64,000 nt of DNA from Candidatus Nomurabacteria bacterium (GTDB taxonomy: Bacteria > Patescibacteriota > Minisyncoccia > Phycocordibacterales > JACOZG01), in NCBI GenBank assembly GCA_020847275.1, contig JADLCI010000007.1, forward strand, positions 188,059 through 252,058, read 5' to 3'. Each line of letters opens with the position of its first letter. Position 1 is the stretch's first letter. Positions 1-57,620 of this stretch are shown here, in pieces. Below the pieces are notes generated by a model. It was not told where the DNA came from, ran no database searches, and saw only the letters and a list, made by a program, of their open reading frames with translations. The translations under genes were made by a program, and so were the position numbers.

Positions 1-825
1 GCCCGGACCGGGGATCGTTTGACGGGTTTTGCCCGCGCTTTGTCTGCAAGTGGTAGTAGTGGTTGGGACGGGAATATAAAACTTGATGGTATTAATTACG
101 GAGTGATGATTTCGACCGGCAACCCGAATCTTACTGGGTTTGCCTGGGGGGGCGACGTTGTTGGTTGGGTCGATTTTAGGGGGGTTTTTATTGGTCTGCC
201 AGACACACCAGATACAGGAACCTGTACTGACGGTATTCAAAATGGTAATGAGTCGGGTGTTGATATTGGTGGCCGTTGCGGCGGAGGTGGTGGTGACGGT
301 GGGGAGGACGGTGGTGGGGATGGGGAGGGTGTTCCTCCGGGCGAGCATGTGCCTCTTCCGGGCGAGCCGGGTTATATCGCACCGTCAATATCGGTTGTAT
401 CGGGACACGATCGACTGGAGATTAATACCCAACCCCTGACTTCACCAGCCATTTCTTCACCGTCTCAATTTACAGCTGTTCGTGGTAGTACTCCCGGCCT
501 AAGGGTTAAAATCAGAAACATTAGGTCATTTGGCGATAGCTCTATTGAGAAGGTCGGTGACTCGTTGCTCAGGTGTCGCCTTGACGATTCGCCGTTAACG
601 AACTACATAGATAGTGAGTTTAAGTCTTGTGATACTGCAAGCCTTACTCTAATTAATCAGTTTGACACAGATGTTTACCTGAATATCAGGGTGGAGAGTG
701 CGTCTCAGTCCATTAAGGAGCGTAGCCCATATCAAGTCTTGGTTGGTATCGATTCCTGTCTTGAGGCAACCTGTAGTGACTCCGCCTTGTTCGATTACCG
801 GGTTGGCCCAGTCAACCCTATCTAG
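1..825 (+). CDS. hypothetical Gly/Asp-rich repetitive protein; may be 5' partial because the frame is open to the window edge
   Basis: ORF 19..825 begins at a TTG and is open upstream to position 1. It contains a low-complexity GGRCGGGGGDGGEDGGGDGEG tract. No recognisable family. Confidence 0.3.
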   Translation, partial: ARTGDRLTGFARALSASGSSGWDGNIKLDGINYGVMISTGNPNLTGFAWGGDVVGWVDFRGVFIGLPDTPDTGTCTDGIQNGNESGVDIGGRCGGGGGDGGEDGGGDGEGVPPGEHVPLPGEPGYIAPSISVVSGHDRLEINTQPLTSPAISSPSQFTAVRGSTPGLRVKIRNIRSFGDSSIEKVGDSLLRCRLDDSPLTNYIDSEFKSCDTASLTLINQFDTDVYLNIRVESASQSIKERSPYQVLVGIDSCLEATCSDSALFDYRVGPVNPI

Positions 826-1581: not shown

Positions 1582-2037
1582 ATGGTAACGGTTGAACAAA
1601 TAAAAAGTTTGCGAGAGGAAACCGGCATATCAATCGCCGAATGTAAGAAGGCCCTGGAATCTGCTAATGGGGATATGGATGTGGCTCGGGTGGCACTCGG
1701 TGCCGCAAGTGTAAAGAATGCCGCGAAAAAGGCTGGCCGAACTCTAGGTGCTGGGGTGATTGGGGAATATGTTCACACGGGAAGAACAATGGCCGCTCTT
1801 GTGGAGCTCGACTGTGAGACTGACTTCGTCGCGAGAAATGAAGAGTTTATCCGGCTGGCCTCTGAGTTGGCGATGCAGGTTGCCGCCCTTGAGCCGGCGG
1901 ATACCACCGCTTTACTTGAACAGCCGTTTATCAAGGATTCCAGTCTTACGGTGGCAATGGTTATTAAAAACACGGTGCAGAAATTTGGGGAACGGGTGGA
2001 GGTGTCACGGTTTGTTCGCATGTCGGTGGGACAATAA
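1582..2037 (+). CDS. tsf: elongation factor Ts (short form)
   Basis: MVTVEQIKSLREETGISIAECKKALE... is a typical EF-Ts UBA-like N-terminus. Located directly after rpsB. Confidence 0.85.
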   Translation: MVTVEQIKSLREETGISIAECKKALESANGDMDVARVALGAASVKNAAKKAGRTLGAGVIGEYVHTGRTMAALVELDCETDFVARNEEFIRLASELAMQVAALEPADTTALLEQPFIKDSSLTVAMVIKNTVQKFGERVEVSRFVRMSVGQ

Positions 2038-2418: not shown

Positions 2419-2494
2419 GCCGGTGTAGCTCAGTTGGTAGAGCAACGGTTTTGTAAACCGTAGGTCGTCAGTTCAAGCCTGACCACCGGCTCCA
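2419..2494 (+). tRNA. tRNA-Thr (anticodon UGU)
   Basis: Cloverleaf read by eye. Acceptor stem gccggtg/caccggc. D-arm agctcagttggtagagc. Anticodon stem acggt/accgt with loop tttgtaa, giving anticodon TGT. T-arm ggtcgtcagttcaagcctgacc. Discriminator T followed by encoded CCA. Confidence 0.8.
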
Positions 2495-2511: not shown

Positions 2512-3642
2512 TTACCTAATCTCTGCGTTGAACTGGTTTTTTGTTTCGGTAGTGATTTTGTCTTGGATGGGGTCAATTTCGTCTGTGGTGAGCGTGCGTT
2601 CATTCGAGCGGTAAACGATACGATAGGTGTAGCTTATTTTTCCCGGTCCAAATTTTTGTTCGTTTTCAAACCGATCTATCAGCGTCACTTCCTCGACTAG
2701 CTCGCCGCCGAGATCACGGATAAGGTCAAAGTAATTGTTTGGAGCGAAGGTAGATGGAACGATAAAGGAGATGTCTCGGACAATAGGTGGATATTTAGAA
2801 ACATCGCGGTATTTTTGCTCCAGTCTCAACTGCTTCTTCACCCGTTCGTCTTTGCTCCAAAGCAGGCGAATATCTGGCAATTCCATGTTTGCGATGGCGA
2901 GTCTTTCCAGTCCGAAGCCGAAGGCCCAACCGTGATAACCGGTTATGCCGAAGTTCTCTAGGACACTTTTTCGTGGCATTCCGGAACCAAGTATCTCAAT
3001 CCATTGATTATTAACGAAAGCCTCCATCTCAAAGCTGGGGTCGGTGTAGGGGAAATTATGGTCATAAAAACGGAATTCAACCTTCTCGCCGAAAATGCTT
3101 TTAGCGATCTCGGATAAAACTTTTTTCAGGTCTTCTGGCGTGATTTTTTCCTTACCATCAGGAGCGAGATAAAGCCCACCCATCTGATGGAAGACGTTCA
3201 TGTGTCGTTTGTCAATTTCATCTTTTCTGTATACTTTACCGTGGCAAATTGCACCGACGGCTTCTTTTTTTGCAATCCGGTTTTTAATTTCTGGAGTATT
3301 TAGATAGTAATACCAAAAGACAGTGTCGTGTGTTCTCAGGACATTTTTTTCATCCACATAATAAGTGTCAGATTTGGATCGGGCTGGGTGGCCGACTGGC
3401 ATGTTGAAAAGATCGAACAAAATATCAACCGGAATTATTTCAGGAATTTGGATGATATCAAAATCGGCCAAACTCGGTACCCGAAGAGTTCTGTCTACGA
3501 TTTCTTTCAGCGGGTTATTGTCTTGACGTGATAAGTCTGGCATTGCCAAGAAACGTTGCATCCGTTTGGCGTCGGCGTCACCACGTTCAGCAAGCTTTTT
3601 TCGTAACCCATTTTCCTCTGTCAAGTCGATCTTAATTTCCAT
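2512..3642 (-). CDS. pheS: phenylalanine--tRNA ligase, monomeric (mitochondrial-like) form: PheS catalytic core plus C-terminal FDX-ACB anticodon-binding domain
   Basis: Class II motifs GHPARSKSDTYY and GWAFGFGLERLAI match the PheS alpha subunit. The C-terminal ~100 aa (YPPIVRDISFIVP...VEEVTLIDRF...KISYTYRIVYRS...TLTTDEI) match the FDX-ACB domain normally found on PheT. No pheT is present in the window. Confidence 0.8.
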   Translation of the reverse strand: MEIKIDLTEENGLRKKLAERGDADAKRMQRFLAMPDLSRQDNNPLKEIVDRTLRVPSLADFDIIQIPEIIPVDILFDLFNMPVGHPARSKSDTYYVDEKNVLRTHDTVFWYYYLNTPEIKNRIAKKEAVGAICHGKVYRKDEIDKRHMNVFHQMGGLYLAPDGKEKITPEDLKKVLSEIAKSIFGEKVEFRFYDHNFPYTDPSFEMEAFVNNQWIEILGSGMPRKSVLENFGITGYHGWAFGFGLERLAIANMELPDIRLLWSKDERVKKQLRLEQKYRDVSKYPPIVRDISFIVPSTFAPNNYFDLIRDLGGELVEEVTLIDRFENEQKFGPGKISYTYRIVYRSNERTLTTDEIDPIQDKITTETKNQFNAEIR

Positions 3643-3716: not shown

Positions 3717-5750
3717 ATGGTAAAAAAAGAAGCTAAAACACGTCATTACGACGCCGATGATATTGTTGTTCTGGAGGGTCTAGAGCCAGTGCGTAAGCGG
3801 CCTGGAATGTACATTGGCTCAACTGGTCCAGAGGGGTTACATCATCTATTGGTGGAGATATTTGATAACTCTCGGGATGAGGCAATGAATGGTTCATGCA
3901 ATGAGATTGAGGTCGCTCTTTTACCGGGCGATGTTGTTCGGGTTGCTGATAATGGGGCGGGTATTCCCGTTGCGATTCATCAGAAGACTAAGGTTTCAGC
4001 TCTTGAGACGGTCATGACAACACTTCACGCTGGCGGCAAATTTGAAGGTGAGGGATACAAAATTTCTGGAGGTCTGCATGGTGTGGGGGCTTCGGTGGTG
4101 AATGCGTTGTCGGAATGGACGCGAGTGGAGGTTTATCGTGATGGGGGAAAGCATTTCCAAGAATATTCACGGGGTAAACGTAAGGCCGCGGTAAAGAAGG
4201 TCGCTCGTTCGGACGAGCATGGTACGGTTGTGGCCTTCAAGCCCGATGCTCAAATTTTTTCCCACCTCGTATATGATTGGGAAAAGGTGGTGAATCATCT
4301 CCGCGGGCAAGCCTATCTGGTGAAGGGTCTTCGGGTGCGGACTATTGACGCGAGGGGCTATAAAGGCAAGATCGAAGACGATCAGGTTCTGTATCTCAGC
4401 CAACTAGGGTTGGAGTTGCCTACGCGGACTTTTTACTTCGAAGGAGGGTTGTTATCTCTGGTGAAATTTTATAATCAAACTGAGGCACCACTCCATAAGA
4501 ATATTTTTTACGTCGAGAGAGAAAAAGATGATGTGAATGTAGAGGTTGCCTTCCAGTACGTTGACGATATTACGGCACGAGAGATTAGCTATACCAACAA
4601 CACCGTTACACCGGAAGGCGGTACCCACTTAACCGGTTTTCGCACGGCATTGACTAGGACGCTTAATGATTACGGCAGAAAAAATAATTTAATTAAAGAA
4701 AAAGACGATAATTTTACCGGCGAAGACGTGCGAGAGGGCCTTACTGCCGTGGTTTCGGTTAAGTTGCGTAATCCACAGTTTGAAGGGCAAACTAAGGCAA
4801 AGCTCGGTAATGTCGAGGTGCGCGGAGCGGTGGAAAGTGTTTTCGGTGAAGCCATGCAGCTTTTCTTGGAGGAAAATCCAGATGATGCTCGTAGCATCAT
4901 TGGTAAGGTCACTTTGGCCCTTAGGGCGCGTAAGGCCGCCAAAGCGGCTAAGGATAGTATTCTCCGAAAAGGGGCGCTTGAGGGTATGACCCTGCCTGGT
5001 AAGCTTGCTGATTGTCAGACTAAGGATGCCGAAGAAGCAGAGCTCTTTATCGTAGAGGGTGATTCGGCTGGTGGTTCTGGTAAACAGGGACGCGATCGAC
5101 GTACTCAGGCGATTCTGCCCCTGAAAGGTAAAATTCTTAATGTTGAAAGAGCAAGGTTAGATAAAATGCTCGCCTTCGCTGAGATTAAGTCGCTAATTAT
5201 AGCGATGGGAACATCTATCGGTGATACCTTTGATGTTGGAAAATTGCGTTACCACAAGATCATCATTGCCACCGATGCGGACGTTGATGGTGCTCACATT
5301 CGTACTCTCTTGCTCACTTTGTTCTACCGTTATTTCCGACCATTGATCGAACAGGGCTTCATCTATATTGCTCAACCGCCACTTTATAAGATTAAACAAG
5401 GGAAGGAGATTCAGTACGCTTACTCTGATGAGGAGAAGTTAAGGGTGGTGAAGAATTTTGGCGGGGACGTGGCAAACGGGGAGGAGGAGCTCGCGGAGGA
5501 TAACGAGGAAGAAGGGAGCAAGATCAAGACGAAGAAAATTTCAATTCAGCGTTATAAAGGTTTGGGAGAGATGAACCCGGAAGAATTGTGGGAGACAACA
5601 ATGGACCCGACAAAACGGATTTTGAAACAGGTCAATATTCACGAAGCTTCAGAGGCTGACAAAATTTTTACTATCCTGATGGGTGGCGAAGTGGAGCCAC
5701 GAAAACTGTTTATCCAAACACACGCGAAGATGGCTAATTTGGATGTTTAA
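3717..5750 (+). CDS. gyrB: DNA gyrase subunit B (type IIA topoisomerase B subunit; GyrB/ParE)
   Basis: N-terminal GHKL ATPase (LEGLEPVRKRPGMYIGSTG, GLHHLLVEIFDNSRDE). Toprim motif EGDSAGGSGKQGRDRRTQAILPLKGK. 677 aa. Confidence 0.85.
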   Translation: MVKKEAKTRHYDADDIVVLEGLEPVRKRPGMYIGSTGPEGLHHLLVEIFDNSRDEAMNGSCNEIEVALLPGDVVRVADNGAGIPVAIHQKTKVSALETVMTTLHAGGKFEGEGYKISGGLHGVGASVVNALSEWTRVEVYRDGGKHFQEYSRGKRKAAVKKVARSDEHGTVVAFKPDAQIFSHLVYDWEKVVNHLRGQAYLVKGLRVRTIDARGYKGKIEDDQVLYLSQLGLELPTRTFYFEGGLLSLVKFYNQTEAPLHKNIFYVEREKDDVNVEVAFQYVDDITAREISYTNNTVTPEGGTHLTGFRTALTRTLNDYGRKNNLIKEKDDNFTGEDVREGLTAVVSVKLRNPQFEGQTKAKLGNVEVRGAVESVFGEAMQLFLEENPDDARSIIGKVTLALRARKAAKAAKDSILRKGALEGMTLPGKLADCQTKDAEEAELFIVEGDSAGGSGKQGRDRRTQAILPLKGKILNVERARLDKMLAFAEIKSLIIAMGTSIGDTFDVGKLRYHKIIIATDADVDGAHIRTLLLTLFYRYFRPLIEQGFIYIAQPPLYKIKQGKEIQYAYSDEEKLRVVKNFGGDVANGEEELAEDNEEEGSKIKTKKISIQRYKGLGEMNPEELWETTMDPTKRILKQVNIHEASEADKIFTILMGGEVEPRKLFIQTHAKMANLDV

Positions 5751-6979
5751 ATTGGGGATAACTTATTAAGTTTGCCGCTAAGTTCTTCGACACTAATTCC
5801 TTCCCACTTGCTTTTTCCGTCTTCTTCGTCTCGTAATTCGACCGTCAGTTTCTGGTCTCTCATCTCTTGATCACCAATCACAATTAGATAGGGAATTTTT
5901 TGGCTCTTCTGATTCCTGATTTTCTTACCCAAGCTTTCGTTGCTCAAATCCAATTCAACGCGGACCTTGTTTTGCTGTAGTTCAGAGAAGATTTTTTTTG
6001 CGTAATCGTGGTGCGCTTCGCCAATGGGCAAGATGACGGCCTGTATCGGGGCGAGCCACACCGGGAAAGCCCCGGCATGTTTCTCAATTAGAAAAGCGAT
6101 TGTCCGTTCGATAGAGCCGATAGAGGAACGGTGAACTACAAAACAGGAATGTTCTTTGCCGTCTTCGCCGGTATATTTAAGGTCAAATCGTGATGGCATG
6201 CAGAGATCATACTGAACCGTGAAGGCGGTGTCTTCTTTTCCGTTTACATTTTTCATTTGAACGTCAATTTTTGGACCATAGAAAGCCGCCTCGTCTTTTG
6301 CCTCAGAGAACTCGACACCACGATTCTGCATCAGTTTGCGCAGGAGATTCTCCGACTTATCCCAGCCGGCATCATCTTGATGATATTTCTCCGTGTTGTT
6401 TCGATCACCAAGCGAGAGGCGATAATTGTAGTCTCTACCCATTTCCAGTCCAAGCATTCTGTTGGCGTATTCGATCAAATCAAGGGCCCTACCCATTTCT
6501 AGTACAGCCTGTTCTTCAGAAGCACAAATTATGTGAGCGTCAGATAGACAGAAGGCGCGAACACGCTGCAGGCCCATTAGTTCGCCCGATTGCTCGTAAC
6601 GATACAGTTTAGAGATCTCGGCAATTCTCATTGGTAGTTCACGATAGCTATGTGGTTGCGACAGGTAAAGTTGAAAGTGATGTGGACAGGTCATTGGCCG
6701 GAGCATAAACTCGTCATCATCAATCACAATTGGGGCGTACATGTCATTCTTGTAATGAGGGTAGTGGCCAGACTTCTTGTAAAGTTCTAGTCGCGCGATG
6801 TCCGGTGTCTCGACATGAAGGTAACCGCGTTTGATTTCCTCGGCAATAATGAATTGTTCTAAAAGGCGTTTGACCGTTGCGCCCCTGGGTAGGAAAATAG
6901 GTAAACCTTTTCCGACGACTGGGTCGATATAAAATAGGCCCAGCTGTGGCCCGATCTTCTTATGATCTCGTTCTTCCAT
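5747..6979 (-). CDS. thrS: threonine--tRNA ligase, catalytic core plus anticodon-binding domain only; lacks the N-terminal TGS and editing domains
   Basis: Begins at the RDHKKIGPQLGLF motif that opens the ThrRS class II core. LRPMTCPHH resembles ThrRS RPMNCPGH. C-terminal anticodon-binding domain present. 410 aa. Confidence 0.8.
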   Translation of the reverse strand: MEERDHKKIGPQLGLFYIDPVVGKGLPIFLPRGATVKRLLEQFIIAEEIKRGYLHVETPDIARLELYKKSGHYPHYKNDMYAPIVIDDDEFMLRPMTCPHHFQLYLSQPHSYRELPMRIAEISKLYRYEQSGELMGLQRVRAFCLSDAHIICASEEQAVLEMGRALDLIEYANRMLGLEMGRDYNYRLSLGDRNNTEKYHQDDAGWDKSENLLRKLMQNRGVEFSEAKDEAAFYGPKIDVQMKNVNGKEDTAFTVQYDLCMPSRFDLKYTGEDGKEHSCFVVHRSSIGSIERTIAFLIEKHAGAFPVWLAPIQAVILPIGEAHHDYAKKIFSELQQNKVRVELDLSNESLGKKIRNQKSQKIPYLIVIGDQEMRDQKLTVELRDEEDGKSKWEGISVEELSGKLNKLSPI

Positions 6980-12157: not shown

Positions 12158-13063
12158 ATGGCTAACCGGCATCTGGCAAGAAGTATTGCTCTGCAGTCGC
12201 TCTTTGAGTGGGACGCGCGTGGTTATGCCACAGAGGATTTGGCCGGTGTCATTTTACGAAATGTTGCTGAATTCGGGCCGGGCTTGGAAGACGATGTTTT
12301 TATAAAAAGATTGGTTTCCGAGACAATTGATCGGAAGGAAAAGCTGGATTTAATTATTGCTAAGGCGGCACCAGATTGGCCGATTGAGCAGATTGCCATG
12401 ATTGACCGTAATGTTTTACGGCTCGGTCTCTGTGAGCTTCTCTTCTCTGACCATAAGGAAGTACCAGCGCGAGTGGCAATCAATGAGGCGATTGAGCTGG
12501 CGAAGACATTTGGCGGGGATAATTCTGGTAAGTTTGTGAACGGTGTACTCGGGGCAATTTACAAAGAGATGGGGGAGCCAGGGAAAGATGATGTTCCCGC
12601 GAAGAAAAAAAGACCGAGAGATATTCCCTACGAACAGATGCCGGTGGAGAAGCTGGGTGGGGCCGTCGTTTATTGCCGTGAGAATGGTCAGATTTTTTTG
12701 GCTCTTGTTCACGATATGTTTGGTTACTGGACTCTCTCCAAGGGGCATCTAAATCAGGGGGAGGAGACGGGTGTCGGCGTTGCTCGGGAAATCAAAGAGG
12801 AGATGTCTTTAACGGTGAGAGTTCTTGACCACCTGGCAGACAATGAATACATTTCTTCTGACCCAGAGAAGGGTAAATTACGCAAACAGGTCTCTTATTT
12901 TCTGGCCGAAGCGGAGGACAAGAACTCTTTGAAACTGACAAAGTCTGGTGGATTGGATGACGCCCGCTGGTTTGATTTGTCCGAAATCGCGGGTCTAAAA
13001 ATGTATGACGATGTTGTTCCCTTTGTGACGAAAGCAATTAGAATTTTGTCTACTAAAAAGTAA
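12158..13063 (+). CDS. nusB: transcription antitermination factor NusB fused to a C-terminal NUDIX hydrolase domain
   Basis: First ~140 aa match the NusB fold (ARSIALQSLFEWD...AINEAIELAKTFGGDNSGKFVNGVL). C-terminal half has a Nudix box GHLNQGEETGVGVAREIKEEMSL (G-x5-E-x7-REUxEE). Confidence 0.8.
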   Translation: MANRHLARSIALQSLFEWDARGYATEDLAGVILRNVAEFGPGLEDDVFIKRLVSETIDRKEKLDLIIAKAAPDWPIEQIAMIDRNVLRLGLCELLFSDHKEVPARVAINEAIELAKTFGGDNSGKFVNGVLGAIYKEMGEPGKDDVPAKKKRPRDIPYEQMPVEKLGGAVVYCRENGQIFLALVHDMFGYWTLSKGHLNQGEETGVGVAREIKEEMSLTVRVLDHLADNEYISSDPEKGKLRKQVSYFLAEAEDKNSLKLTKSGGLDDARWFDLSEIAGLKMYDDVVPFVTKAIRILSTKK

Positions 13064-35172: not shown

Positions 35173-35248
35173 AATTTAGTGGAAATCATCGATGGTGAAC
35201 ATAGCAACTTACTTTCAATTCGTCAATTTTTTTGCTAGAGTTTTCCCA

Positions 35249-36970
35249 ATGGATTCGAAAGAAATCAGACAGAGGTTTCTGGAATTTTTCAAAGCGAGGG
35301 GGCATACGATTATGTCTTCCTCGTCGCTTGTGCCGGAAAACGATCCGTCGGTTCTCTTTACTACAGCGGGGATGCAGCAATTCAAACCCTATTACACGGG
35401 CGAGAAAAACGCGCAGGAGGACTTCAGTTCATCGAGCGCAACCTCAGTTCAAAAGTGCGTGCGAACCTCTGATATTGAAGAGGTGGGGGATGACACGCAT
35501 CTCACCTTCTTTGAAATGCTGGGCAACTTCTCTTTCGGGGGCTATTTCAAAGAAGAAGCAATAAAGTATGCATACGAGTTTATTACTCAAGGAGTGAAGT
35601 TGCCGATTTCTTATGTCACTGTTTTTGAGGGTAAGGGTTCTGTGCCTAAGGATGGTGAATCGAAGAAAATCTGGGAATCTCTCGGCGTAACGGATATTCG
35701 CGAACAAGGAATGGAAGATGTATTCTGGGGTCCAACCGGTGATTCTGGTCCCTGTGGCCCGACCACCGAAATTTATTGTAGGAATAAGGGTGGCGAAGAC
35801 GTGGAAATCTGGAACATTGTGTTCAATGAATATTTCTGTGATAGTAACAGAGAAAATCTTTTAGCAGACAAGGCGACCCTGACGGCCTTAGAGACAAAAG
35901 GTATTGATACCGGAATGGGTTTAGAGCGTTTGTTGACTACTGTTCAAGGAAAAACCAGTATTTTCGAAACAGATTTATTTTCTCCAATCATCACTAAAAT
36001 CGAAGAATTTTCCAATTCTGGCGACACGAAAGCGAAGAGGGTTGTGGCTGATCATATTAGAACCGCCGTTTTCATGATTGCTGATGGTGTTACTCCCTCC
36101 AACACAGATAGTGGATATATCTTGCGGAGACTGTTGCGGCGATCAGTGCGCTATGCCGACACCCTTAACTTTAAACCCAACTCATTGTTTCGATTGGTGG
36201 AGACAGTGATCGATAAATATGGTGATGTCTATGAAAATCTAAAAATAAATAAGGAGAAAATAAAACAAGAGGTTGAGAGAGAGGAGAATAAATTTCGTGA
36301 GACTCTGAAAAGAGGTTTGCAGGAATTTGAAAAAGGGGCAGACCCGTTCCTTCTCTTCACTTCTTATGGCTTCCCCCTTGAATTAATAAAAGAATTAGCG
36401 GTTGAAAAAGGCCTAAAGATTGATGAGGAAAAATTTGCAATCGAAATGGAGAAACACCAAGAAACTTCTCGTGCCGGAGCGGGGAAAAAGTTTAAGGGCG
36501 GCTTGGCTGATGCGGGTGACGAGAAGGTGGTGCAATATCACACCGCTACCCACTTATTGCATCAAGCACTTCATGATGTACTTGGAGACAATGTTGCCCA
36601 GAAGGGGAGTAACATTACAAGTGAGCGTTTGCGTTTCGACTTTGCTCACAGCCAAAAATTAACCGACCAAGAAAAACAAAAAATAGAAGAGATTGTGAAT
36701 CAGAAAATTGAGGAAAAGCTCCCGGTACAGACTATCGTTTTACCGAAAGTTGAGGCCGAGAAAGTTGGAGCGCGGATGTTCTTCGGTGATAAGTATGGCG
36801 ACCAGGTTAGTGTTTATTTCATCGGGGAAAGTTTGGAGCGGGCTTATTCCAAGGAGTTTTGCGGTGGGCCGCACGTGGGCAATACGCAAGATTTGAAAGG
36901 AGTATTCAAAATTGTGAAGGAAGAGGCGGTCGCTTCTGGCGTGAGGCGGATTAAGGCGGTGTTGGAATAG
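35249..36970 (+). CDS. alaS: alanine--tRNA ligase, short form (catalytic plus editing domains, no C-Ala domain)
   Basis: MDSKEIRQRFLEFFKARGHTI...FTTAGMQQFKP matches AlaRS motifs. Editing-domain HTATHLLHQALH and CGGPHV present. Track ORF starts at 35192, but the conserved AlaRS N-terminus suggests ATG 35249. Confidence 0.8.
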   Translation: MDSKEIRQRFLEFFKARGHTIMSSSSLVPENDPSVLFTTAGMQQFKPYYTGEKNAQEDFSSSSATSVQKCVRTSDIEEVGDDTHLTFFEMLGNFSFGGYFKEEAIKYAYEFITQGVKLPISYVTVFEGKGSVPKDGESKKIWESLGVTDIREQGMEDVFWGPTGDSGPCGPTTEIYCRNKGGEDVEIWNIVFNEYFCDSNRENLLADKATLTALETKGIDTGMGLERLLTTVQGKTSIFETDLFSPIITKIEEFSNSGDTKAKRVVADHIRTAVFMIADGVTPSNTDSGYILRRLLRRSVRYADTLNFKPNSLFRLVETVIDKYGDVYENLKINKEKIKQEVEREENKFRETLKRGLQEFEKGADPFLLFTSYGFPLELIKELAVEKGLKIDEEKFAIEMEKHQETSRAGAGKKFKGGLADAGDEKVVQYHTATHLLHQALHDVLGDNVAQKGSNITSERLRFDFAHSQKLTDQEKQKIEEIVNQKIEEKLPVQTIVLPKVEAEKVGARMFFGDKYGDQVSVYFIGESLERAYSKEFCGGPHVGNTQDLKGVFKIVKEEAVASGVRRIKAVLE

Positions 36971-37150: not shown

Positions 37151-38020
37151 TTGTGGCCCTTTGACAACATTTTTCTGAAAGGAGGTTCTTCAATGAACCA
37201 GCAAGAGGAAGGTTTGAAGATCCCGAACTGGTTGAGAAGTTTCATCGGAGCATTCTGTGGTGGCATTGTGGGTGGAGTGTTCATCTACACCTATGTCGGC
37301 AATGTGGCTTGGTCGCTCATCGGCTTCGCTGTGGGTTGCTTGACAGCCTACATCTTACCGCGACCGATCGTTTTCGGTCAGAAGATGAAGGAGGTCTGGA
37401 GGGGGGTGCGGTGGATTAGTCCCAGGAAACGACGAAGACTGGAGATGGTGGTACTTTATCCCACCCCTTTCATTTGGGGCTGCAGTGTCGTCCTGTGGTT
37501 GCCAGCCCTTCTCTTCTTGGGTGGCCAGGAGGATCTGGCGGAAGTATTGGGATTGATTGTGGGTTTATATTCGGCAACCGTCTGGTTTCTGTTGATTTTG
37601 TTGTCCTTTGTGAACCAACCGTCTTTTCCTGCTTATCGCGGCATGAAGAAGATGGCGAAGCGGTGCAACTTTTTCACCGCTCCGTTTTGGGCTCTTTGGC
37701 TATTGTGGCAGGTTCTGAAGGTGGCCGGTAAGGTCGTTGTGTCCCTTCCAGAATTAGCGGGAGCGATTATGCAGGGAATGTCCTACTGCGTTAAATTTCT
37801 CTACCGATTCACCTATCACACCTTCGTTCTCACGAGCGAGAATTGTCGATTGGTGGCCGTGTTCGGCGCCGCCCTGGGGATGCTTTACGGAGCCGTGTAT
37901 CAGACTAGCTCGCCCTTGATTATGGGGGTGATGGGCGGGATGGTTAGTCTTGCCATTAGTGGCATGACTTGGCTTGCTCTTCGGGTATTGCCACTGCCGG
38001 CGAGATCGGCTACAATCTAG
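37151..38020 (+). CDS. hypothetical integral membrane protein
   Basis: Multiple hydrophobic helices. Alternative start ATG 37193. No family recognised. Confidence 0.45.
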   Translation: MWPFDNIFLKGGSSMNQQEEGLKIPNWLRSFIGAFCGGIVGGVFIYTYVGNVAWSLIGFAVGCLTAYILPRPIVFGQKMKEVWRGVRWISPRKRRRLEMVVLYPTPFIWGCSVVLWLPALLFLGGQEDLAEVLGLIVGLYSATVWFLLILLSFVNQPSFPAYRGMKKMAKRCNFFTAPFWALWLLWQVLKVAGKVVVSLPELAGAIMQGMSYCVKFLYRFTYHTFVLTSENCRLVAVFGAALGMLYGAVYQTSSPLIMGVMGGMVSLAISGMTWLALRVLPLPARSATI

Positions 38021-38055
38021 GGTAGATTTGGTCCTTTCATTTGCTCCTCCAACTC

Positions 38056-38110
38056 GGCCGTCCACGTTTTACAATTTCTATCTAGAAGTTGGCGTGGACG
38101 GCCTTTTTTT
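38056..38110 (+). terminator. rho-independent terminator
   Basis: Stem ggccgtccacg/cgtggacggcc followed by a T7 run. An extended -10 element (TGtTATAAT, 38112-38120) follows immediately. Confidence 0.55.
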
Positions 38111-38126
38111 ATGTTATAATTTCGGA

Positions 38127-39155
38127 ATGTCGGTTCGGGCCATCGTGTATGTTGGTAGCTCAAGCGTTAGTGGGGGATTGATTAGTGAGAAAAAATTAGT
38201 TTTTCAAACAGAAAAGGAGTGCCGAGTGCCAGAAAAACTGGAAGGTAAAATATTTTTGGATGACGTTGGAGAAACACTGAAGCGGGTAATGGCGGATTTG
38301 CTTGGTGCGAAAATGGGATCGCCAGAGAAAGTGCTTATTTTCCTTGCATCGCCATTTATTGTCGGAAGCCTGAACATCATTCGTCACACCGCGGAGAAAC
38401 CGTTTTCCGTTACCGAGAAACTGGTGGGCGAATTATTGATGAAAGAAACGGAGAAGATAAAAAACGACCCCAAACAATCTCTGATCGATTCGAAGATTAT
38501 GCGTTTCCGTCTTAACGGATATACGGTTAATGAACCACACGGTCAGGTCGTCTCCAATCTGGAAATCGCGCATTATCTGAGTGTGGCCTCTAGAGAGGTG
38601 ACGGAGAAATTTGGCGGGATTATCCGCTCGGCTTGTCATCATGATCAGGTGGAATGGCATTCTTCAAGTTTTGCAATTTTCACTAGCCTGCGAGATAAAC
38701 GGCCGACAGAACAGAGCTTTGTCCTGGTTGATATTGGTGGGGAATTAACGGAACTAACTCTCGTGTGGCGGGGGATTATCCGCGAGACGATGTCCTACCC
38801 TATTGGTTCACACGCCTTGGTGCGCGAAGCAATGGTAAGTGGTGAGCAAGCGTCGGTCGTTGCAAGAGCAAAGTTGGAATCAGAAGGAGAGGACAAAAAA
38901 GGACGAGACTACAAATCGGAAACGGAATGGGCGGAGTCTTTCGTTGCTGGATTAGAGAAAGTACTTCAACATCGTTTCTGGTCTGGTGAGATCGTTTTAC
39001 TGGTTGAGGAGGGTTCGCTGGGTTCCAGATTTGCCAAAATTTTACGACAAGCTGATTTGGGGAAAACTATTTTCAGTGCCAAGTTGCCAGTAATCAATCT
39101 TCTTGAACCAAAGACGCTTTCTCTTTTAACAGATTTTTGTGTTAAAATAAAATAA
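38127..39155 (+). CDS. actin-like ATPase, PilM/FtsA-like (tentative)
   Basis: MSVRAIVYVGSSSVSGGL and FVLVDIGGELTELTLV resemble the phosphate-1 and phosphate-2 motifs of PilM/FtsA. The track ORF 37974.. over-extends upstream. Confidence 0.4.
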   Translation: MSVRAIVYVGSSSVSGGLISEKKLVFQTEKECRVPEKLEGKIFLDDVGETLKRVMADLLGAKMGSPEKVLIFLASPFIVGSLNIIRHTAEKPFSVTEKLVGELLMKETEKIKNDPKQSLIDSKIMRFRLNGYTVNEPHGQVVSNLEIAHYLSVASREVTEKFGGIIRSACHHDQVEWHSSSFAIFTSLRDKRPTEQSFVLVDIGGELTELTLVWRGIIRETMSYPIGSHALVREAMVSGEQASVVARAKLESEGEDKKGRDYKSETEWAESFVAGLEKVLQHRFWSGEIVLLVEEGSLGSRFAKILRQADLGKTIFSAKLPVINLLEPKTLSLLTDFCVKIK

Positions 39156-49057: not shown

Positions 49058-50521
49058 ATGGTCAACCGTAAATCAGGCTCTATTTTGAGAGCAATCAAAA
49101 CTAAGAAGTCGTCTTACTGGGAACGGATTCGAAAACAACGCTCCCTGTCACTTTTTCATCAAGCTTCGCGAGAGGTCCCAGCTTATAAGGATTTCCTCAG
49201 GAAACACAAAATTGACCCCAATAAGGTTAAGGAATTCGAGGATCTAGAAATTTTACCCCACGTGACGAAAGACAACTATCTTCGGAAATATTCTCTGCCC
49301 GATTTGAGTTGGGGCGGGACGCTAGATCATCCTCTTGTCTATACCTCGACATCCGGTTCGACTGGTAATCCTGTCTATTTTCACCGTTCTTTCCGGTTAG
49401 ATTGGCAGTCTTCAATTCTTCACGAGATGTACTATTCTTTTGGGCAAAAAAGCAATGGCCCGACGCTTGTCATTGTCTGTTTTGGTATGGGGGTTTGGAT
49501 TGGGGGCATAATCACTTATCAAGCGTTTAGACTAATGAAAGAACGTGGACACAACCTTTCTCTCATTACACCCGGCATTAACAAGGAAGAGATATTTAGA
49601 GCTCTTAAAAATCTTTCGCCTTTCTATGCCCAGACAATTCTAGTGGGATATCCGCCATTTATCAAAGACATCGTTGATGAATCGGAGGAAAGGGGGATAA
49701 ACTTAAAAAAAATTGGTTTAAGGGTTCTATGCGCCGCAGAACCCTTTGATGAGAAATTCCGACGTTACCTTATAAAAAAATCGGGCGCCGACCACAAGAC
49801 AGGAGTTACTAATATCTATGGTACGGCCGATTTGGGTACGATGGCCATAGAAACACAGCTATCGATTACTATTCGCGAAAGCACCGTAAAGAGGCCGGAC
49901 ATATTTAAGGAGCTCTTTGGGGAAATCAATAAGACACCGACCCTGTGTCAGTATATTCCAGACCATATTTCTTTTGATACAACCCAGAACGGCGATATTC
50001 TAATAACTGGTGACAACTCAATTCCCCTGATTCGTTACGCCATCGGTGATCATGGGGGGACCTATTCTGCAGAAATGTTGGAAAAAAAATTGACGGATTT
50101 GGGGCAAAAGGTTGATTTTATTCAACATTTACCCTTTGTGTATGTGTACGAAAGAGCAGACATGTCCACCACACTTTATGGTCTTCAGGTTTATCCAGAA
50201 CCATTGCGGGAAATATTTTTGCAACAACCCTTTGTTAATTACTGCACGGGCAAGTTTATGTTAGAAACCAGGTTCAATCGAAAGCAAGACCAATATTTAC
50301 TTATACACATTGAATTACGCAAAAACAAGAAGATTACGGATATAATAAGAAGAGCGTTGCTGAGAGCCATCGTCCTTCAACTAGAGAATAAAAATTCTGA
50401 ATTCCGCGAGTTGCACAAAATGCTGGGACGGCGCTCATGGCCTAAGGTTGTTTTTTGGCCGTATGAGGATCAGAAATACTTTAAGGTTGGGATCAAACAA
50501 AAGTGGGTAAAGGGCAACTAA
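49058..50521 (+). CDS. adenylate-forming enzyme, phenylacetate-CoA ligase (PaaK)/F390 synthetase-like
   Basis: TSTSGSTGNPVYF is the AMP-binding P-loop of the PaaK-like subfamily. Confidence 0.65.
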   Translation: MVNRKSGSILRAIKTKKSSYWERIRKQRSLSLFHQASREVPAYKDFLRKHKIDPNKVKEFEDLEILPHVTKDNYLRKYSLPDLSWGGTLDHPLVYTSTSGSTGNPVYFHRSFRLDWQSSILHEMYYSFGQKSNGPTLVIVCFGMGVWIGGIITYQAFRLMKERGHNLSLITPGINKEEIFRALKNLSPFYAQTILVGYPPFIKDIVDESEERGINLKKIGLRVLCAAEPFDEKFRRYLIKKSGADHKTGVTNIYGTADLGTMAIETQLSITIRESTVKRPDIFKELFGEINKTPTLCQYIPDHISFDTTQNGDILITGDNSIPLIRYAIGDHGGTYSAEMLEKKLTDLGQKVDFIQHLPFVYVYERADMSTTLYGLQVYPEPLREIFLQQPFVNYCTGKFMLETRFNRKQDQYLLIHIELRKNKKITDIIRRALLRAIVLQLENKNSEFRELHKMLGRRSWPKVVFWPYEDQKYFKVGIKQKWVKGN

Positions 50522-56306: not shown

Positions 56307-57620
56307 ATGAAAAATCGAATTTGTCTTAAAGACTTATCAAGTGAGGTCGGAAAGGAGGTCAAAATGGCCGGCTGGGTGGATGTGCGACGCGATCATGGTA
56401 AGCTCGTTTTCATCGATTTGCGAGATGTAACTGGCAAAGTACAAATGGTGATACTACCCACCGTGGAAGCCTACCTTGTCGCCCAAGAGGTGCGACCGGA
56501 ATGGGTTGTAGAGGTAGACGGCGTAGTCCAGAAACGCCCAGAAAAACTTATCAATAAAGACGAGAAGAATGGCGAAATCGAGGTTCAAGTAAGTCAGATG
56601 CGGGTATTGAGCGAAGCCGAAACATCGCCAATTCCGATTATCCAAACTAATTATGACGACGAAGCTGAAGCGCCACTGCGATTTGATTATCGTTGGCTCG
56701 ATTTGCGCCAACCGAAGAAGGCGGAAATATTCGAAGTTTGGACGGAAATGGAAAGAGGTTTTCGTGATTTCTGGTTGGAAAATAATTTCCGACAAATTTA
56801 CACCCCTTCTCTCATGAATACACCAAGTGAGAGTGGCGCGGAAGTCTTCGAGATCAATTATTTTGACCGCAAGGCCTATCTGGCTCAATCACCTCAATTT
56901 TATAAACAAATGGCGATGGCCGCTGGCCTAGAAAGAGTGTTTATGGTTGGTCCGGTTTTCCGCGCGGAGCCATCCTTCACTACTCGCCACCTTACCGAGT
57001 TTACCGGTTGGGACTTTGAGATGTCCTATATCGATTCCCATCATGATGTCATGGATCTTGAGGAGGGGCTCATTATTTCTGGCTTTAAGGCTGTGGCACA
57101 AAAATTCCCAGAACTAGACTTGACGATTCCCGCACGACCATTTCCACGGATCACAATGGTGGAGGCAAAAGAAATCTTAACCAAAGCTGGTGTTTTTGGT
57201 GGTGAAGAACATGACCTCTCGCCAGAAGAAGAGAGAGCATTGTCGGAATATGTAAAAAGGAAGATGAATCATGAGTTCGTTTTTGTTACCGATTATCATG
57301 AATCTAAAAGCGCCTTCTATCACATGAGACATGAGGACGATAATACTCGAAGCAAACGTGCCGACCTACTTTTCCGGGGGATTGAAGTAACGACTCTGGC
57401 ACAGAGAGAGCATCGTCTGGCCATTTTAGAGAAACAAGCCGTTGCGAAAGGGATGAAATTAGAACCGCTAAACGATTATTTAAACTTTTTTAGATACGGT
57501 TGTCCGCCACACGGTGGGGCTGGTATCGGCCCGGGACGACTGATTATGAAACTCTTAGATCTGCCCAATGTCCGAGAAGCCACCTACTTACCACGAGACG
57601 TTAAACGTCTGAACCCCTAA
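56307..57620 (+). CDS. aspS: class IIb aminoacyl-tRNA ligase, archaeal/eukaryal-type AspRS (AsnRS not excluded)
   Basis: OB-fold N-terminus (VKMAGWVDVRRDHGKLVFIDLRD). Motif 2 FRAEPSFTTRHLTEFTGWDFEM. Motif 3 GGAGIGPGRLIM. 437 aa. Confidence 0.7.
   Translation: MKNRICLKDLSSEVGKEVKMAGWVDVRRDHGKLVFIDLRDVTGKVQMVILPTVEAYLVAQEVRPEWVVEVDGVVQKRPEKLINKDEKNGEIEVQVSQMRVLSEAETSPIPIIQTNYDDEAEAPLRFDYRWLDLRQPKKAEIFEVWTEMERGFRDFWLENNFRQIYTPSLMNTPSESGAEVFEINYFDRKAYLAQSPQFYKQMAMAAGLERVFMVGPVFRAEPSFTTRHLTEFTGWDFEMSYIDSHHDVMDLEEGLIISGFKAVAQKFPELDLTIPARPFPRITMVEAKEILTKAGVFGGEEHDLSPEEERALSEYVKRKMNHEFVFVTDYHESKSAFYHMRHEDDNTRSKRADLLFRGIEVTTLAQREHRLAILEKQAVAKGMKLEPLNDYLNFFRYGCPPHGGAGIGPGRLIMKLLDLPNVREATYLPRDVKRLNP

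What the first reader, a model, noticed from the sequence alone, without database searches (positions are those of the whole stretch)
2512..3642. Mitochondrial-type monomeric PheRS (PheS core fused to an FDX-ACB anticodon-binding domain) and no pheT
Bacterial PheRS is normally an (alpha-beta)2 heterotetramer encoded by adjacent pheS-pheT. Here the 376-aa protein has only about 40 aa before the catalytic core, so it lacks the usual N-terminal coiled coil. It carries class II motifs 2 and 3. It ends with an ~100-aa domain matching the FDX-ACB fold that normally sits at the PheT C-terminus, the same chimeric layout as mitochondrial PheRS. No pheT follows in the window. This implies editing-deficient monomeric Phe charging, which is unusual for bacteria and relevant to translational fidelity in reduced genomes.
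Basis: partly seen in the sequence, partly recalled or inferred. Interest (0 to 1): 0.55.

Follow-up and report, generated by a model that had tools for sequence, protein, structure and literature searches.

The report
Mitochondria-style one-chain PheRS in bacteria
This gene encodes a compact single-chain version of the enzyme that loads phenylalanine onto its tRNA, a design described so far for mitochondria. It is the standard, highly conserved form in a very large group of tiny-genome (CPR/Patescibacteria) bacteria, and it has no proofreading module.

Summary
ORF 2512-3642 (-) encodes a 376-aa protein with a PheS class II core (aa 38-271, E 2.7e-53) fused to an FDX-ACB anticodon-binding domain (aa 282-376, E 5.8e-24). 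There is no long N-terminal coiled coil, and no PheT domain lies anywhere in the 64-kb window.

- **Closest solved relative:** human mitochondrial PheRS (E ~1e-58). The alignment runs unbroken through the fusion junction, and the AlphaFold model (pLDDT 91.5) matches 3CMQ at TM 0.75.
- **Key residues:** the catalytic residues and the four residues that read tRNAPhe G34 in the human enzyme are kept in 81/81 orthologues.
- **Distribution:** the gene is not a one-off. The window comes from a Candidatus Nomurabacteria MAG. Thousands of Paceibacteria and Gracilibacteria/SR1-type genomes carry it, usually next to gyrB, and NCBI mostly labels it "hypothetical protein". Huge phages, giant viruses and a few other bacteria also encode this type.
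- **Phylogeny:** in a rough tree the bacterial clade sits beside the eukaryotic/viral sequences, not inside them.

Not shown: that the whole genome lacks pheS/pheT, that the enzyme is monomeric, and that it charges tRNAPhe.

Best reading (about 0.8): it is the cell's only PheRS and has no editing. I found no paper describing this.

The parts
2512..3642 (-). Gene for a 376-aa single-chain PheRS (PheS core + FDX-ACB); the stop codon is at 2512-2514
   Evidence: ORF. Pfam domains. Best PDB matches are human mitochondrial PheRS, E ~1e-58. It is identical to NCBI 'hypothetical protein IT398_02385 [Candidatus Nomurabacteria bacterium]'.
3532..3642 (-). N-terminal element, aa 1-37: two short helices (8-19, 23-33) with conserved D22, R27, L32, P35-D36-L37. 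It is much shorter than the PheS coiled coil.
   Evidence: Family invariants. AlphaFold secondary structure. Coordinates checked.
2830..3531 (-). Class II catalytic module of PheS type, aa 38-271
   Evidence: PF01409, E 2.7e-53. It aligns with the bacterial PheS cores of PDB entries at E 1e-30.
3175..3240 (-). Motif 2, aa 135-156 (GKVYRKDEIDKRHMNVFHQMGG), including R139, H152 and Q153
   Evidence: R139, H152 and Q153 are invariant in 81/81 orthologues and in the other bacterial subfamilies.
3034..3054 (-). Phe-pocket strand FPYTDPS, aa 197-203. It corresponds to FPFT(E/H)PS of E. coli and human mitochondrial PheRS. Tyr199 replaces the second Phe.
   Evidence: F197, P198, Y199 and T200 are invariant in 81/81. 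Position 199 is Phe in most of the second Paceibacteria subfamily. Alignment.
2896..2931 (-). Motif 3, aa 238-249 (GWAFGFGLERLA), with A240 (equivalent to E. coli alpha-A294) and R247
   Evidence: A240 and R247 are invariant in 81/81. Alignment with E. coli PheS.
2800..2829 (-). Linker between the core and the anticodon-binding domain, aa 272-281
   Evidence: The alignment to human mitochondrial PheRS is continuous across this junction, query 166-361 against chain 201-399.
2515..2799 (-). FDX-ACB (B8-like) anticodon-binding domain, aa 282-376. D323, F325, S337 and C-terminal R376 match human D364, F366, S375 and R414, the residues that read G34 of tRNAPhe.
   Evidence: PF03147, E 5.8e-24. Residue mapping comes from the alignment plus PMC7540514; R376/R414 lies beyond that alignment and was mapped as the conserved C-terminal Arg (columns). 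D, S and R are invariant and position 325 is Y or F in 81/81.
2419..2494 (+). tRNA-Thr(UGU), convergent neighbour downstream of the gene (context only)
   Evidence: ARAGORN and Rfam.
3717..5750 (+). gyrB, divergent neighbour. It is the conserved partner of this gene in 56 of 80 related loci (context).
   Evidence: Translation. Synteny count.
5747..6979 (-). thrS, 410 aa, with catalytic core and anticodon domain only and no TGS or editing domain (context: a second editing-less synthetase close by)
   Evidence: Pfam finds only tRNA-synt_2b and HGTP_anticodon. It matches TIGR00418 only from profile position 170 onward.

Best explanation
The gene encodes the housekeeping phenylalanyl-tRNA synthetase of a Candidatus Nomurabacteria (Paceibacteria, CPR) bacterium, built like mitochondrial PheRS.

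One chain carries the PheS-type class II active site, which would make Phe-AMP and transfer Phe to tRNAPhe. It also carries a C-terminal FDX-ACB domain, which would read G34 of the GAA anticodon through Asp323, an aromatic residue at 325, Ser337 and the C-terminal Arg376.

By analogy with the human enzyme, it probably works as a monomer. It would swing the anticodon domain from a closed resting arrangement to an open tRNA-bound one.

It has no B3/B4 editing module. Tyr-tRNAPhe or m-Tyr-tRNAPhe therefore cannot be cleared in cis, and accuracy must rest on the active site (Ala240, Thr200, Tyr199).

Shown here: the architecture, the conservation of residues, the fold, the wide distribution and the genomic context. 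Inferred: Phe-tRNAPhe activity, the monomeric state, the lack of any other PheRS in the genome, and the lack of editing in trans.
For: **Architecture and family scores**
- The domain architecture is core + FDX-ACB.
- NCBIfam ranks pheS_mito (TIGR00469) first at 232.6 bits, ahead of SrmL at 220.7 and bacterial pheS at 164.5.

**Similarity to the human mitochondrial enzyme**
- PDB sequence search gives human mitochondrial PheRS at E ~1e-58, against 1e-30 for bacterial alpha subunits. The alignment is unbroken through the fusion point.
- The AlphaFold model has pLDDT 91.5 and pTM 0.85.
- Foldseek's best hits are 3CMQ, 5MG* and 8P8X at TM 0.74-0.76 over ~386 columns. The open-state complex 3TUP scores 0.60.

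**Residue conservation**
- R139, H152, Q153, F197, P198, T200, A240 and R247 are invariant in 81/81 orthologues. So are the G34 readers D323, S337 and R376, and position 325 is always aromatic.
- The same residues are kept in nearly all members of two further bacterial subfamilies.
- The role of the human equivalents is experimentally established: D364G abolishes charging (PMC7540514).

**Signs of a housekeeping gene**
- There are more than 6,400 database relatives, and the top 120 are 70-85% identical over the full length.
- 360 GTDB species representatives carry it, from many Parcubacteria candidate phyla.
- Across the same loci it is more conserved (median 69% identity) than GyrB (62%), ThrRS (57.5%), DnaE (55%), RpsB (47%) and EF-Ts (40%). 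It sits beside gyrB in 56/80 loci.

**No canonical PheRS nearby**
- No canonical PheS and no B1, B3/4, B5 or B6/7 part of PheT appears in the window plus 80 loci, 1.37 Mb in all.

**Supporting context**
- In the name-bearing hit lists only Parcubacteria-type and Gracilibacteria names appear. No Microgenomates name does.
- Microgenomates-type CPR are reported to have PheRS-beta (PMC5370408; assignment of the cited accession to Microgenomates is my own inference).
- Monomeric mitochondrial PheRS is known to be fully active without a beta subunit (PMC3275996).
- The neighbouring ThrRS has also lost its editing domain. This fits a lineage that tolerates editing loss.
Against: - **Genome not searched.** The rest of the genome could not be searched, so a canonical or archaeal-type pheS/pheT elsewhere is not excluded.
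- **Weak sampling.** The 1.37 Mb sampled is centred on the same locus. Other single-copy synthetases of the window (AlaRS, TrpRS, AspRS) also turn up in fewer than 3 of the 80 loci. The absence of pheST there therefore carries little weight.
- **Below curated cut-offs.** The protein falls below every curated NCBIfam cut-off: 232.6 against 258.35 for pheS_mito. It also scores almost as well on SrmL, 'PheS-related mystery ligase'.
- **Close relatives outside CPR.** Similar proteins occur in ordinary bacteria (an Oligoflexia MAG and a second MAG, GCA_038134595.1, whose taxon I did not obtain). These presumably also have canonical PheRS, so this architecture can exist as an extra copy.
- **Biased identity comparison.** The loci were chosen as the best matches to this very protein, which favours it.
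- **No biochemistry.** No measurement exists of its activity, quaternary state or editing.
Confidence: 0.8

Rival explanations
1. It is an accessory PheS paralogue of some other or unknown function, like NCBI's 'PheS-related mystery ligase SrmL', or a second, inhibitor-resistant PheRS. The real PheRS would then be a canonical pheS-pheT pair elsewhere in the genome.
For: - SrmL (NF051887) scores 220.7 bits over nearly its full length, close to the pheS_mito score.
- Relatives with the same architecture occur in non-CPR bacteria with ordinary gene neighbourhoods, sometimes next to integrase and transposase genes.
- The genome outside the window was not examined.
Against: - The score is far below the SrmL cut-off of 300. 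None of the 20 relatives scanned reaches it either.
- An accessory gene would not be expected to be near-universal across Paceibacteria genomes of 0.5-1 Mb, at 66-85% identity and more conserved than GyrB and DnaE.
- All residues for Phe-AMP chemistry and for G34 recognition are invariant, which points to genuine tRNAPhe charging.
- Its neighbours are core housekeeping genes, not a dedicated cassette.
Confidence: 0.12
2. It is the PheRS catalytic chain but is not self-sufficient. It would work with a separately encoded partner: a stand-alone B2/YtpR-like tRNA-binding protein, or a free-standing trans-editing factor that restores proofreading.
For: - In 20 of 80 related loci, a ~135-150 aa ORF lies directly upstream on the same strand. 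It matches E. coli PheT residues ~40-147, the B2 OB-fold (E 1e-12 to 4e-20).
- That ORF scores 114.5 bits on the pheT_bact N-terminus and 95 bits on YtpR, cut-off 100.
Against: - The window gene has no such neighbour, and no homologue exists anywhere in the 64 kb.
- 60 of the 80 loci lack it next to the gene.
- Human and yeast mitochondrial PheRS need no partner (PMC3275996).
- The B2 domain is dispensable for aminoacylation even in E. coli PheRS (Roy and Ibba 2006, cited).
- No B3/B4-like ORF was found in 1.37 Mb.
Confidence: 0.06
3. It is eukaryotic (mitochondrial FARS2-like) or viral DNA mis-assembled or mis-binned into a bacterial contig, or a recent transfer from a eukaryote with no role in the bacterium.
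For: - The closest solved structure is the human mitochondrial enzyme.
- Giant-virus-like and huge-phage-like contigs encode the same type.
Against: - The gene lies inside a bacterial housekeeping block (rpsB, tsf, tRNA-Thr, gyrB, thrS, dnaE) with uniform composition.
- The same arrangement recurs in 56/80 independent genomes.
- The bacterial sequences form their own clade (88% bootstrap) rather than nesting among eukaryotic ones.
- Gracilibacteria-type members use TGA for conserved glycines, so they have long evolved inside those genomes.
Confidence: 0.02

Closest known systems
Mitochondrial phenylalanyl-tRNA synthetase (human FARS2, yeast MSF1; NCBIfam TIGR00469 pheS_mito; PDB 3CMQ, 3TUP)
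   Same: - The single-chain layout is the same: a short N-terminal region, a PheS class II core and a C-terminal FDX-ACB (B8-like) domain.
- The fusion junction is the same, with a continuous alignment.
- The fold is the same: TM 0.75 to the closed form.
- The active-site motifs and the Asp/aromatic/Ser/Arg set that reads G34 are the same.
- Neither has a B3/B4 editing domain.
   Different: - It is encoded in a bacterial chromosome among housekeeping genes and has no transit peptide.
- It is 376 aa, against ~415 aa for the mature human enzyme. It lacks the ~30-40 aa insertion after motif 2.
- It has its own insertion around aa 110-132 and a conserved N-terminal helical pair.
- FPY replaces FPF in the Phe pocket.
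- It scores 232.6 bits, below the curated cut-off of 258.35.
- It forms a separate clade from the eukaryotic and viral sequences.
Bacterial heterotetrameric PheRS (PheS TIGR00468 + PheT TIGR00472)
   Same: - The catalytic core is homologous to PheS: E 1e-30 to PDB alpha chains, and about 32% identity to E. coli PheS.
- The C-terminal domain is homologous to the B8 domain at the end of PheT: 85 bits on positions 692-798 of pheT_bact.
   Different: - There is no long N-terminal coiled coil.
- It scores 164.5 bits, below the pheS cut-off of 237.45.
- There is no adjacent pheT.
- No B1, B3/4 (editing), B5 or B6/7 domain occurs in the window or in 80 related loci.
- The alpha and B8 modules are on one chain.
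SrmL, 'PheS-related mystery ligase' (NCBIfam NF051887)
   Same: The profile aligns over aa 49-366 (profile positions 21-345 of 349). SrmL is therefore evidently another PheS-core-plus-C-terminal-domain protein of similar size.
   Different: - It scores 220.7 bits, against a cut-off of 300.
- None of 20 relatives scanned reaches the cut-off.
- No protein named SrmL appeared in any hit list.
- No paper on it was found.
- Its function and hosts remain unknown to me.
Virus-encoded single-chain PheRS (huge phages and giant viruses)
   Same: They share the two-domain architecture.
- P0277 and P0141 lie on 340-kb and 160-kb phage-like contigs.
- The 635-kb uncultured phage LR745206 has one.
- P0155 lies on a giant-virus-like contig.
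   Different: - The viral proteins scanned with NCBIfam (P0140, which is the cluster representative of P0277, P0141 and P0155's relatives) pass the pheS_mito cut-off. They group with the eukaryotic sequences rather than with the CPR clade.
- They lack the CPR-type N-terminal element.

Membership tests
Mitochondrial-type (single-chain) PheRS | One polypeptide with a PheS class II catalytic module followed by a C-terminal FDX-ACB (B8-like) anticodon-binding domain | tested here: met
   PF01409 at aa 38-271 and PF03147 at aa 282-376. The alignment to 3CMQ/8P8X is continuous across the junction.
Mitochondrial-type (single-chain) PheRS | Three-dimensional arrangement like human mitochondrial PheRS | tested here: met
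   The AlphaFold model has pLDDT 91.5. The best PDB matches are all human mitochondrial PheRS, at TM 0.74-0.76 and E 2e-35. This is a prediction, not a solved structure.
Mitochondrial-type (single-chain) PheRS | Residues that recognise G34 of tRNAPhe (human D364, F366, S375, R414) | tested here: met
   D323, F325 (Y or F in the family), S337 and R376 align with them (R376 mapped as the C-terminal Arg). They are invariant, or aromatic at 325, in 81/81 orthologues.
Mitochondrial-type (single-chain) PheRS | Curated profile score (TIGR00469 cut-off 258.35 bits) | tested here: not met
   It scores 232.6 bits. The sister representative P0121 scores 264.3 and passes. By NCBI's own rule this protein is not named, which is why it is 'hypothetical protein' in GenBank.
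Mitochondrial-type (single-chain) PheRS | Monomeric quaternary structure and closed-to-open domain rotation on tRNA binding | not testable with these tools
   The only indirect sign is that the model resembles the closed form (TM 0.75) more than the open complex 3TUP (TM 0.60).
Mitochondrial-type (single-chain) PheRS | No editing (B3/B4) module, and it is the only PheRS of its compartment | tested here: inconclusive
   The protein itself has no such domain. No PheT part other than B8 and B2 occurs in the window or in 80 related loci. The whole genome was not searchable.
Bacterial PheS (alpha subunit of the heterotetramer, TIGR00468) | Profile score of at least 237.45 bits, an N-terminal coiled coil, and partnership with an adjacent pheT | tested here: not met
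   It scores 164.5 bits. Only 37 residues lie before the core. The neighbours are tRNA-Thr and gyrB.
SrmL, PheS-related mystery ligase (NF051887) | Profile score of at least 300 bits | tested here: not met
   It scores 220.7 bits.
Class II aminoacyl-tRNA synthetase, PheRS type, catalytically competent | Motif 2 Arg, the His-Gln pair, the FP(F/Y)T strand, the pocket Ala and the motif 3 Arg | tested here: met
   R139, H152, Q153, F197-P198-Y199-T200, A240 and R247 are invariant in 81/81 and kept in nearly all members of the other bacterial subfamilies. Activity itself was not tested.

The most novel reading that the evidence does not exclude
The alpha-B8 fusion that defines mitochondrial PheRS is not a eukaryotic invention. 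It would be an old bacterial one, arising in CPR bacteria or their viruses. A large part of the CPR radiation (Paceibacteria, Gracilibacteria/SR1) would then have replaced the heterotetramer and run translation on an editing-free single-chain PheRS. The eukaryotic FARS2/MSF1 lineage, and the copies in giant viruses and huge phages, would descend from that same fusion by transfer.

The evidence does not exclude this:
- All single-chain sequences form one clade against canonical PheS (100% bootstrap).
- The bacterial ones form a separate clade (88%) that is not nested within eukaryotes.
- The junction is homologous.

The direction of transfer and the root are unresolved.
Probability: 0.3. Interest if true: 0.8.

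Novelty: new member of a known kind. Interest (0 to 1): 0.62.

Why it matters
**Textbook picture.** Reviews describe three forms of PheRS: the bacterial heterotetramer, the archaeal/eukaryotic heterotetramer and the mitochondrial monomer. They call the mitochondrial enzyme the only monomeric class II case (PMC3275996). If this protein is the sole PheRS of Paceibacteria and Gracilibacteria, a major bacterial radiation uses the 'mitochondrial' form.

**Translational fidelity.** These cells would lack PheRS proofreading, and this genome also lacks ThrRS proofreading. That parallels the loss of editing known in mitochondria, and reported for Mycoplasma as far as I recall.

**Origin of the mitochondrial enzyme.** The question becomes directly testable.

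**Practical consequences.**
- Thousands of CPR genomes carry their PheRS as 'hypothetical protein'.
- pheT, and pheS when called with TIGR00468, would be expected to be missing there when used as universal markers.
- A 376-aa self-contained bacterial PheRS could be a convenient scaffold for engineering.

Tried and rejected
**Literature**
They covered monomeric or mitochondrial-type PheRS in bacteria/CPR, SrmL, pheT in Parcubacteria, TIGR00472 and FDX-ACB.
- None turned up a report of this enzyme in bacteria.
- Targeted reading of CPR genome papers and two supplements gave nothing on PheRS.

**Attempts to settle whether pheT exists elsewhere in the genome**
- The exact protein is not in the contig index.
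- I found no way to obtain a CPR PheT seed. The canonical-looking PheS representatives nearest to the query (P0235, P0283) turned out to be eukaryotic fragments.
- rplT and rpmI, the usual neighbours of pheST, occur in none of the loci.
- No tRNA-Phe gene lies in the 1.37 Mb, so identity elements could not be compared.

**Technical**
- A first bootstrap run timed out and was replaced by a faster neighbour-joining script.

**Ideas rejected**
- Contamination or mis-binning, because of synteny and the separate clade.
- Membership of SrmL, because the score is below the cut-off.
- The B2-like ORF as a general partner, because it is absent from the window and from 60 of 80 loci.
Full report
**What is in the sequence**

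The minus strand carries an ATG-to-stop ORF of 376 aa at 2512-3642. The surrounding stop-to-stop frame is only three codons longer, so the short N-terminus is real.

- Pfam places a PheS-type class II core (PF01409) at aa 38-271, E 2.7e-53.
- Pfam places a complete FDX-ACB domain (PF03147, profile 1-94 of 94) at aa 282-376, E 5.8e-24.
- Motif 2 (aa 135-156) and motif 3 (aa 238-249) are present.
One nuance: the 37 N-terminal residues are not a mere stub. They form two short helices with several family-invariant residues.

**No pheT in the window**

Pfam scans of the 31 largest ORFs, including every ORF of 300 aa or more, identify:
- translation and RNA genes: rpsB, a short tsf, thrS, alaS, trpS, an archaeal-type aspS, rnc, RNase R, and a nusB-NUDIX fusion;
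- replication and transcription genes: gyrB, dnaE, dnaG, smc, rpoA, rpoB, rpoC, rpoD;
- chaperone, metabolic and cell-wall genes: dnaK, dnaJ, folD, mraY, ftsW, murG.

There is no second PheS core and no B3_4 or B5 domain. I also ran phmmer with E. coli PheT and an HMM of three PheT sequences at E<=10 against every ORF of at least 50 aa. Both hit only the FDX-ACB part of this same gene.

**Whose gene it is, and how common**

The protein is identical to 'hypothetical protein IT398_02385 [Candidatus Nomurabacteria bacterium]' on a 296-kb contig. The database search returned more than 6,400 relatives at E<=1e-10. The best 120 all have the same two domains, are 368-402 aa long and are 70-85% identical.

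- **GTDB scan.** A scan of one genome per GTDB species, using six peptide patterns taken from this protein, found 360 encoding stretches. The best 80 loci come from Yanofsky-, Zambryski-, Lipton-, Giovannoni-, Doudna-, Taylor-, Sungii-, Vogel- and Nomurabacteria and unnamed Patescibacteria.
- **Doubtful labels.** Many records are labelled 'uncultured Candidatus Saccharibacteria', and single short contigs are labelled Verrucomicrobiia or Nitrospira. At 66-78% identity to the window protein, I treat these as generic or mis-binned labels.
- **Second Paceibacteria subfamily.** It is ~381 aa long and covers Wolfe-, Staskawicz-, Nealson- and Portnoybacteria.
- **Third subfamily.** It belongs to Gracilibacteria and the 'gcode 4' ACD genomes. 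One member's gene has in-frame TGA codons, several of them at positions where the family has conserved Gly (for example both glycines flanking WAFGF). This is the signature of genetic code 25.
- **Conclusion.** The architecture is the rule across large parts of the CPR.

**Relationship to known enzymes**

- **PDB sequence search.** The top six distinct sequences are all human mitochondrial PheRS (E ~1e-58). Bacterial alpha subunits follow at 1e-30, and PheT chains match only the last ~100 residues. The alignment to the human enzyme runs without a break from the core through the linker into the anticodon domain. The fusion point is therefore homologous, not convergent.
- **Structure.** An AlphaFold model built on 40 family members is confident (pLDDT 91.5, pTM 0.85). 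Its best structural matches are the human mitochondrial enzyme in its closed form (TM 0.74-0.76). The open tRNA complex 3TUP scores lower, at 0.60.
- **NCBIfam.** The order is pheS_mito 232.6 bits (cut-off 258.35), SrmL 'PheS-related mystery ligase' 220.7 (cut-off 300), then bacterial pheS 164.5 (cut-off 237.45). The protein passes none of them, which explains the 'hypothetical protein' label.

**Is it a working PheRS?**

I mapped the alignment onto the residue roles given in PMC7540514 and PMC3275996.

- Human Asp364, Phe366 and Ser375, which stack on and hydrogen-bond G34 of tRNAPhe, correspond to Asp323, Phe325 and Ser337. Human Arg414 lies beyond the end of that alignment. I mapped it to the C-terminal Arg376 because both chains end in a conserved Arg (columns). 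D364G abolishes charging in the human enzyme.
- In 81 orthologues (the window plus 80 species), Asp, Ser and Arg are invariant. Position 325 is Tyr in 70 and Phe in 11.
- The catalytic Arg139, His152-Gln153, Phe197-Pro198-Tyr199-Thr200, Ala240 (equivalent to E. coli alpha-Ala294, from my own knowledge) and Arg247 are invariant too.
- The same residues are kept in nearly all members of the second Paceibacteria subfamily, the Gracilibacteria-type subfamily and the small non-CPR group.
- Family-specific features are Tyr instead of the second Phe of the FPF strand, an insertion around aa 110-132 and the N-terminal helical pair.

This pattern is what a genuine tRNAPhe-charging enzyme would show. 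It is hard to reconcile with a decayed or re-purposed paralogue.

**Is it the only PheRS?**

This is the weak point. What I have is indirect evidence.

- **Conservation.** Across the same set of loci the protein is more conserved (median 69% identity) than GyrB (62%), ThrRS (57.5%), DnaE (55%), RpsB (47%) and EF-Ts (40%). It keeps gyrB as neighbour in 56/80 genomes. The caveat is that the loci were chosen as the best matches to this protein.
- **Absence nearby.** No canonical PheS and no PheT domain other than B8 and B2 occurs in 1.37 Mb of Paceibacteria DNA. That DNA is centred on one locus, and other synthetases of the window are also rarely sampled there. The absence therefore carries little weight.
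- **Names in the hit lists.** Only Parcubacteria-type and Gracilibacteria lineages appear, never Microgenomates. Mukai et al. report PheRS-beta in CPR genomes that I take to be Microgenomates-type (PMC5370408). This hints at a complementary distribution.
- **Genome size.** Genomes of 0.5-1 Mb are unlikely to keep both a universal accessory paralogue and a 1,100-aa heterotetramer. This is my own inference.

Together these put the sole-PheRS reading at about 0.8.

The main rival is an SrmL-like or second PheRS with canonical pheST elsewhere. It gains some support from relatives in ordinary bacteria (an Oligoflexia MAG and a second MAG of unrecorded taxon, the latter next to integrase and transposase genes). 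In my tree these sequences nest within the second CPR subfamily (90% bootstrap), which looks like transfer out of CPR.

**Wider family and origin**

Against 1.84 billion cluster representatives, only 204 clusters match at E<=1e-30. Nearly all full-length sequences among the best 150 have the core-plus-FDX-ACB layout.

Genomic context identifies several sources:
- huge-phage-like contigs of 340 kb and 160 kb;
- the 635-kb uncultured phage LR745206;
- a giant-virus-like contig;
- eukaryotes.

I built a neighbour-joining tree of 214 core columns with 200 bootstraps, using three canonical PheS sequences as outgroup.
- All single-chain sequences group together (100%).
- The window's subfamily scores 100%.
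- The bacterial subfamilies group together at 88%.
- The eukaryotic, giant-virus and most phage sequences fall outside that bacterial clade, though not as a supported group (33%).

So the CPR genes are not a recent capture from a eukaryote. One ancient fusion seems to underlie all of them. The method is crude and the outgroup small, so the direction of transfer between bacteria, viruses and the eukaryotic ancestor stays open.

**Mechanism proposed**

*Shown:* a single chain with an intact PheS active site and an intact G34-reading FDX-ACB domain, predicted to fold like the closed form of human mitochondrial PheRS.

*Inferred from the human and yeast enzymes:*
- The enzyme acts as a monomer.
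- It forms Phe-AMP.
- It opens by a large rotation of the anticodon domain to bind tRNAPhe.
- It transfers Phe.
- It cannot hydrolyse Tyr-tRNAPhe because the B3/B4 site is missing.
- Discrimination against Tyr would then depend on the pocket (Ala240, Thr200 and possibly the family-specific Tyr199).

The adjacent ThrRS also lacks its editing and TGS domains. The AlaRS keeps its editing-type domain.

**Verdict**

- I found no publication describing a bacterial single-chain PheRS. Automated pipelines either call it 'PheS alpha chain' (JGI) or 'hypothetical protein' (NCBI).
- I class it as a new (bacterial, CPR-wide) member of a known kind, of moderate to high interest for synthetase evolution and translational fidelity.

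Noticed in passing
window 5747-6979 (-): ThrRS is only 410 aa. It has a catalytic core and an anticodon-binding domain but no TGS and no N-terminal editing domain. Pfam finds only tRNA-synt_2b and HGTP_anticodon, and TIGR00418 matches from profile position 170 onward. It is a second synthetase without proofreading, 2 kb from the PheRS gene.
   Followed up: partly
L033 9555-9995, L021 9577-9990, L045 9545-9961 and 17 further loci (list): In 20 of 80 related Paceibacteria/Doudnabacteria loci, a ~135-150 aa ORF sits directly upstream of the single-chain PheRS gene on the same strand. It matches the B2 (tRNA_bind OB-fold) domain of PheT, E. coli residues ~40-147. It scores 114.5 bits on the pheT_bact N-terminus and 95 bits on YtpR (cut-off 100). 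It is absent from the window.
   Followed up: partly
L082 10001-11047; L091 8001-9065; L097 about 5830-6910; L093 8001-9074: Single-chain PheRS genes lie on huge-phage-like contigs of 340 kb and 160 kb (with PcfJ, SNF2 and PhageMetallopep neighbours). Others lie in the 635-kb uncultured phage LR745206 and on a giant-virus-like contig (Kelch, PTH2 and NAD-dependent ligase neighbours). The ones scanned with NCBIfam pass the pheS_mito cut-off.
   Followed up: partly
L090 8001-9371: A Gracilibacteria-type homologue (P0130) has 15 in-frame TGA codons. Several fall where the family has conserved Gly (for example G238 and G244). The database translated them as Trp, but this is the signature of genetic code 25. 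The gene lies next to an F-type ATP synthase operon.
   Followed up: yes
L085 10001-11245 (Oligoflexia MAG); L092 8001-9296 (GCA_038134595.1): Homologues with the same architecture and all key residues occur in ordinary, non-CPR-looking gene neighbourhoods. One lies beside integrase and IS110/DDE transposase genes. They nest within the second Paceibacteria subfamily in the tree (90% bootstrap). This suggests transfer out of CPR and a possible second PheRS in those hosts.
   Followed up: partly
window 1582-2037 (+): EF-Ts is only 151 aa. It matches TIGR00116 positions 4-107 of 293 at 103.3 bits, just under the cut-off of 104.05, so it is a strongly shortened EF-Ts.
   Followed up: no
window 12158-13063 (+): One 301-aa ORF combines a NusB domain (aa 7-136) with a NUDIX hydrolase domain (aa 170-278). 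This is an unusual fusion.
   Followed up: no
window 35192-36970 (+) and 56307-57620 (+): AlaRS is the short 592-aa type (NF002436, full-length match) and keeps a tRNA_SAD/AlaX-like part. AspRS is the archaeal-type non-discriminating form (NF003483, 441 bits).
   Followed up: no
L038 10001-11122 and L080 67-1188 (same MAG, JACQLT01): One Parcubacteria MAG carries two copies of the gene on different contigs, 90% identical at protein level. This could be strain mixture in the bin or a duplication.
   Followed up: partly
window 19-825 (+): A 268-aa ORF with a Gly/Asp/Glu-rich low-complexity stretch (GGGGGDGGEDGGGDGEG) and no Pfam match. Several other large ORFs also have no Pfam family: 21436-23196, 49058-50521, 37151-38020 and 37974-39155.
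   Followed up: no
window 2512-3642 (-) and database relatives: There is an annotation gap. NCBI names this protein and most relatives 'hypothetical protein', because they fall just below the TIGR00469 cut-off. JGI calls them 'phenylalanyl-tRNA synthetase alpha chain'.
   Followed up: yes
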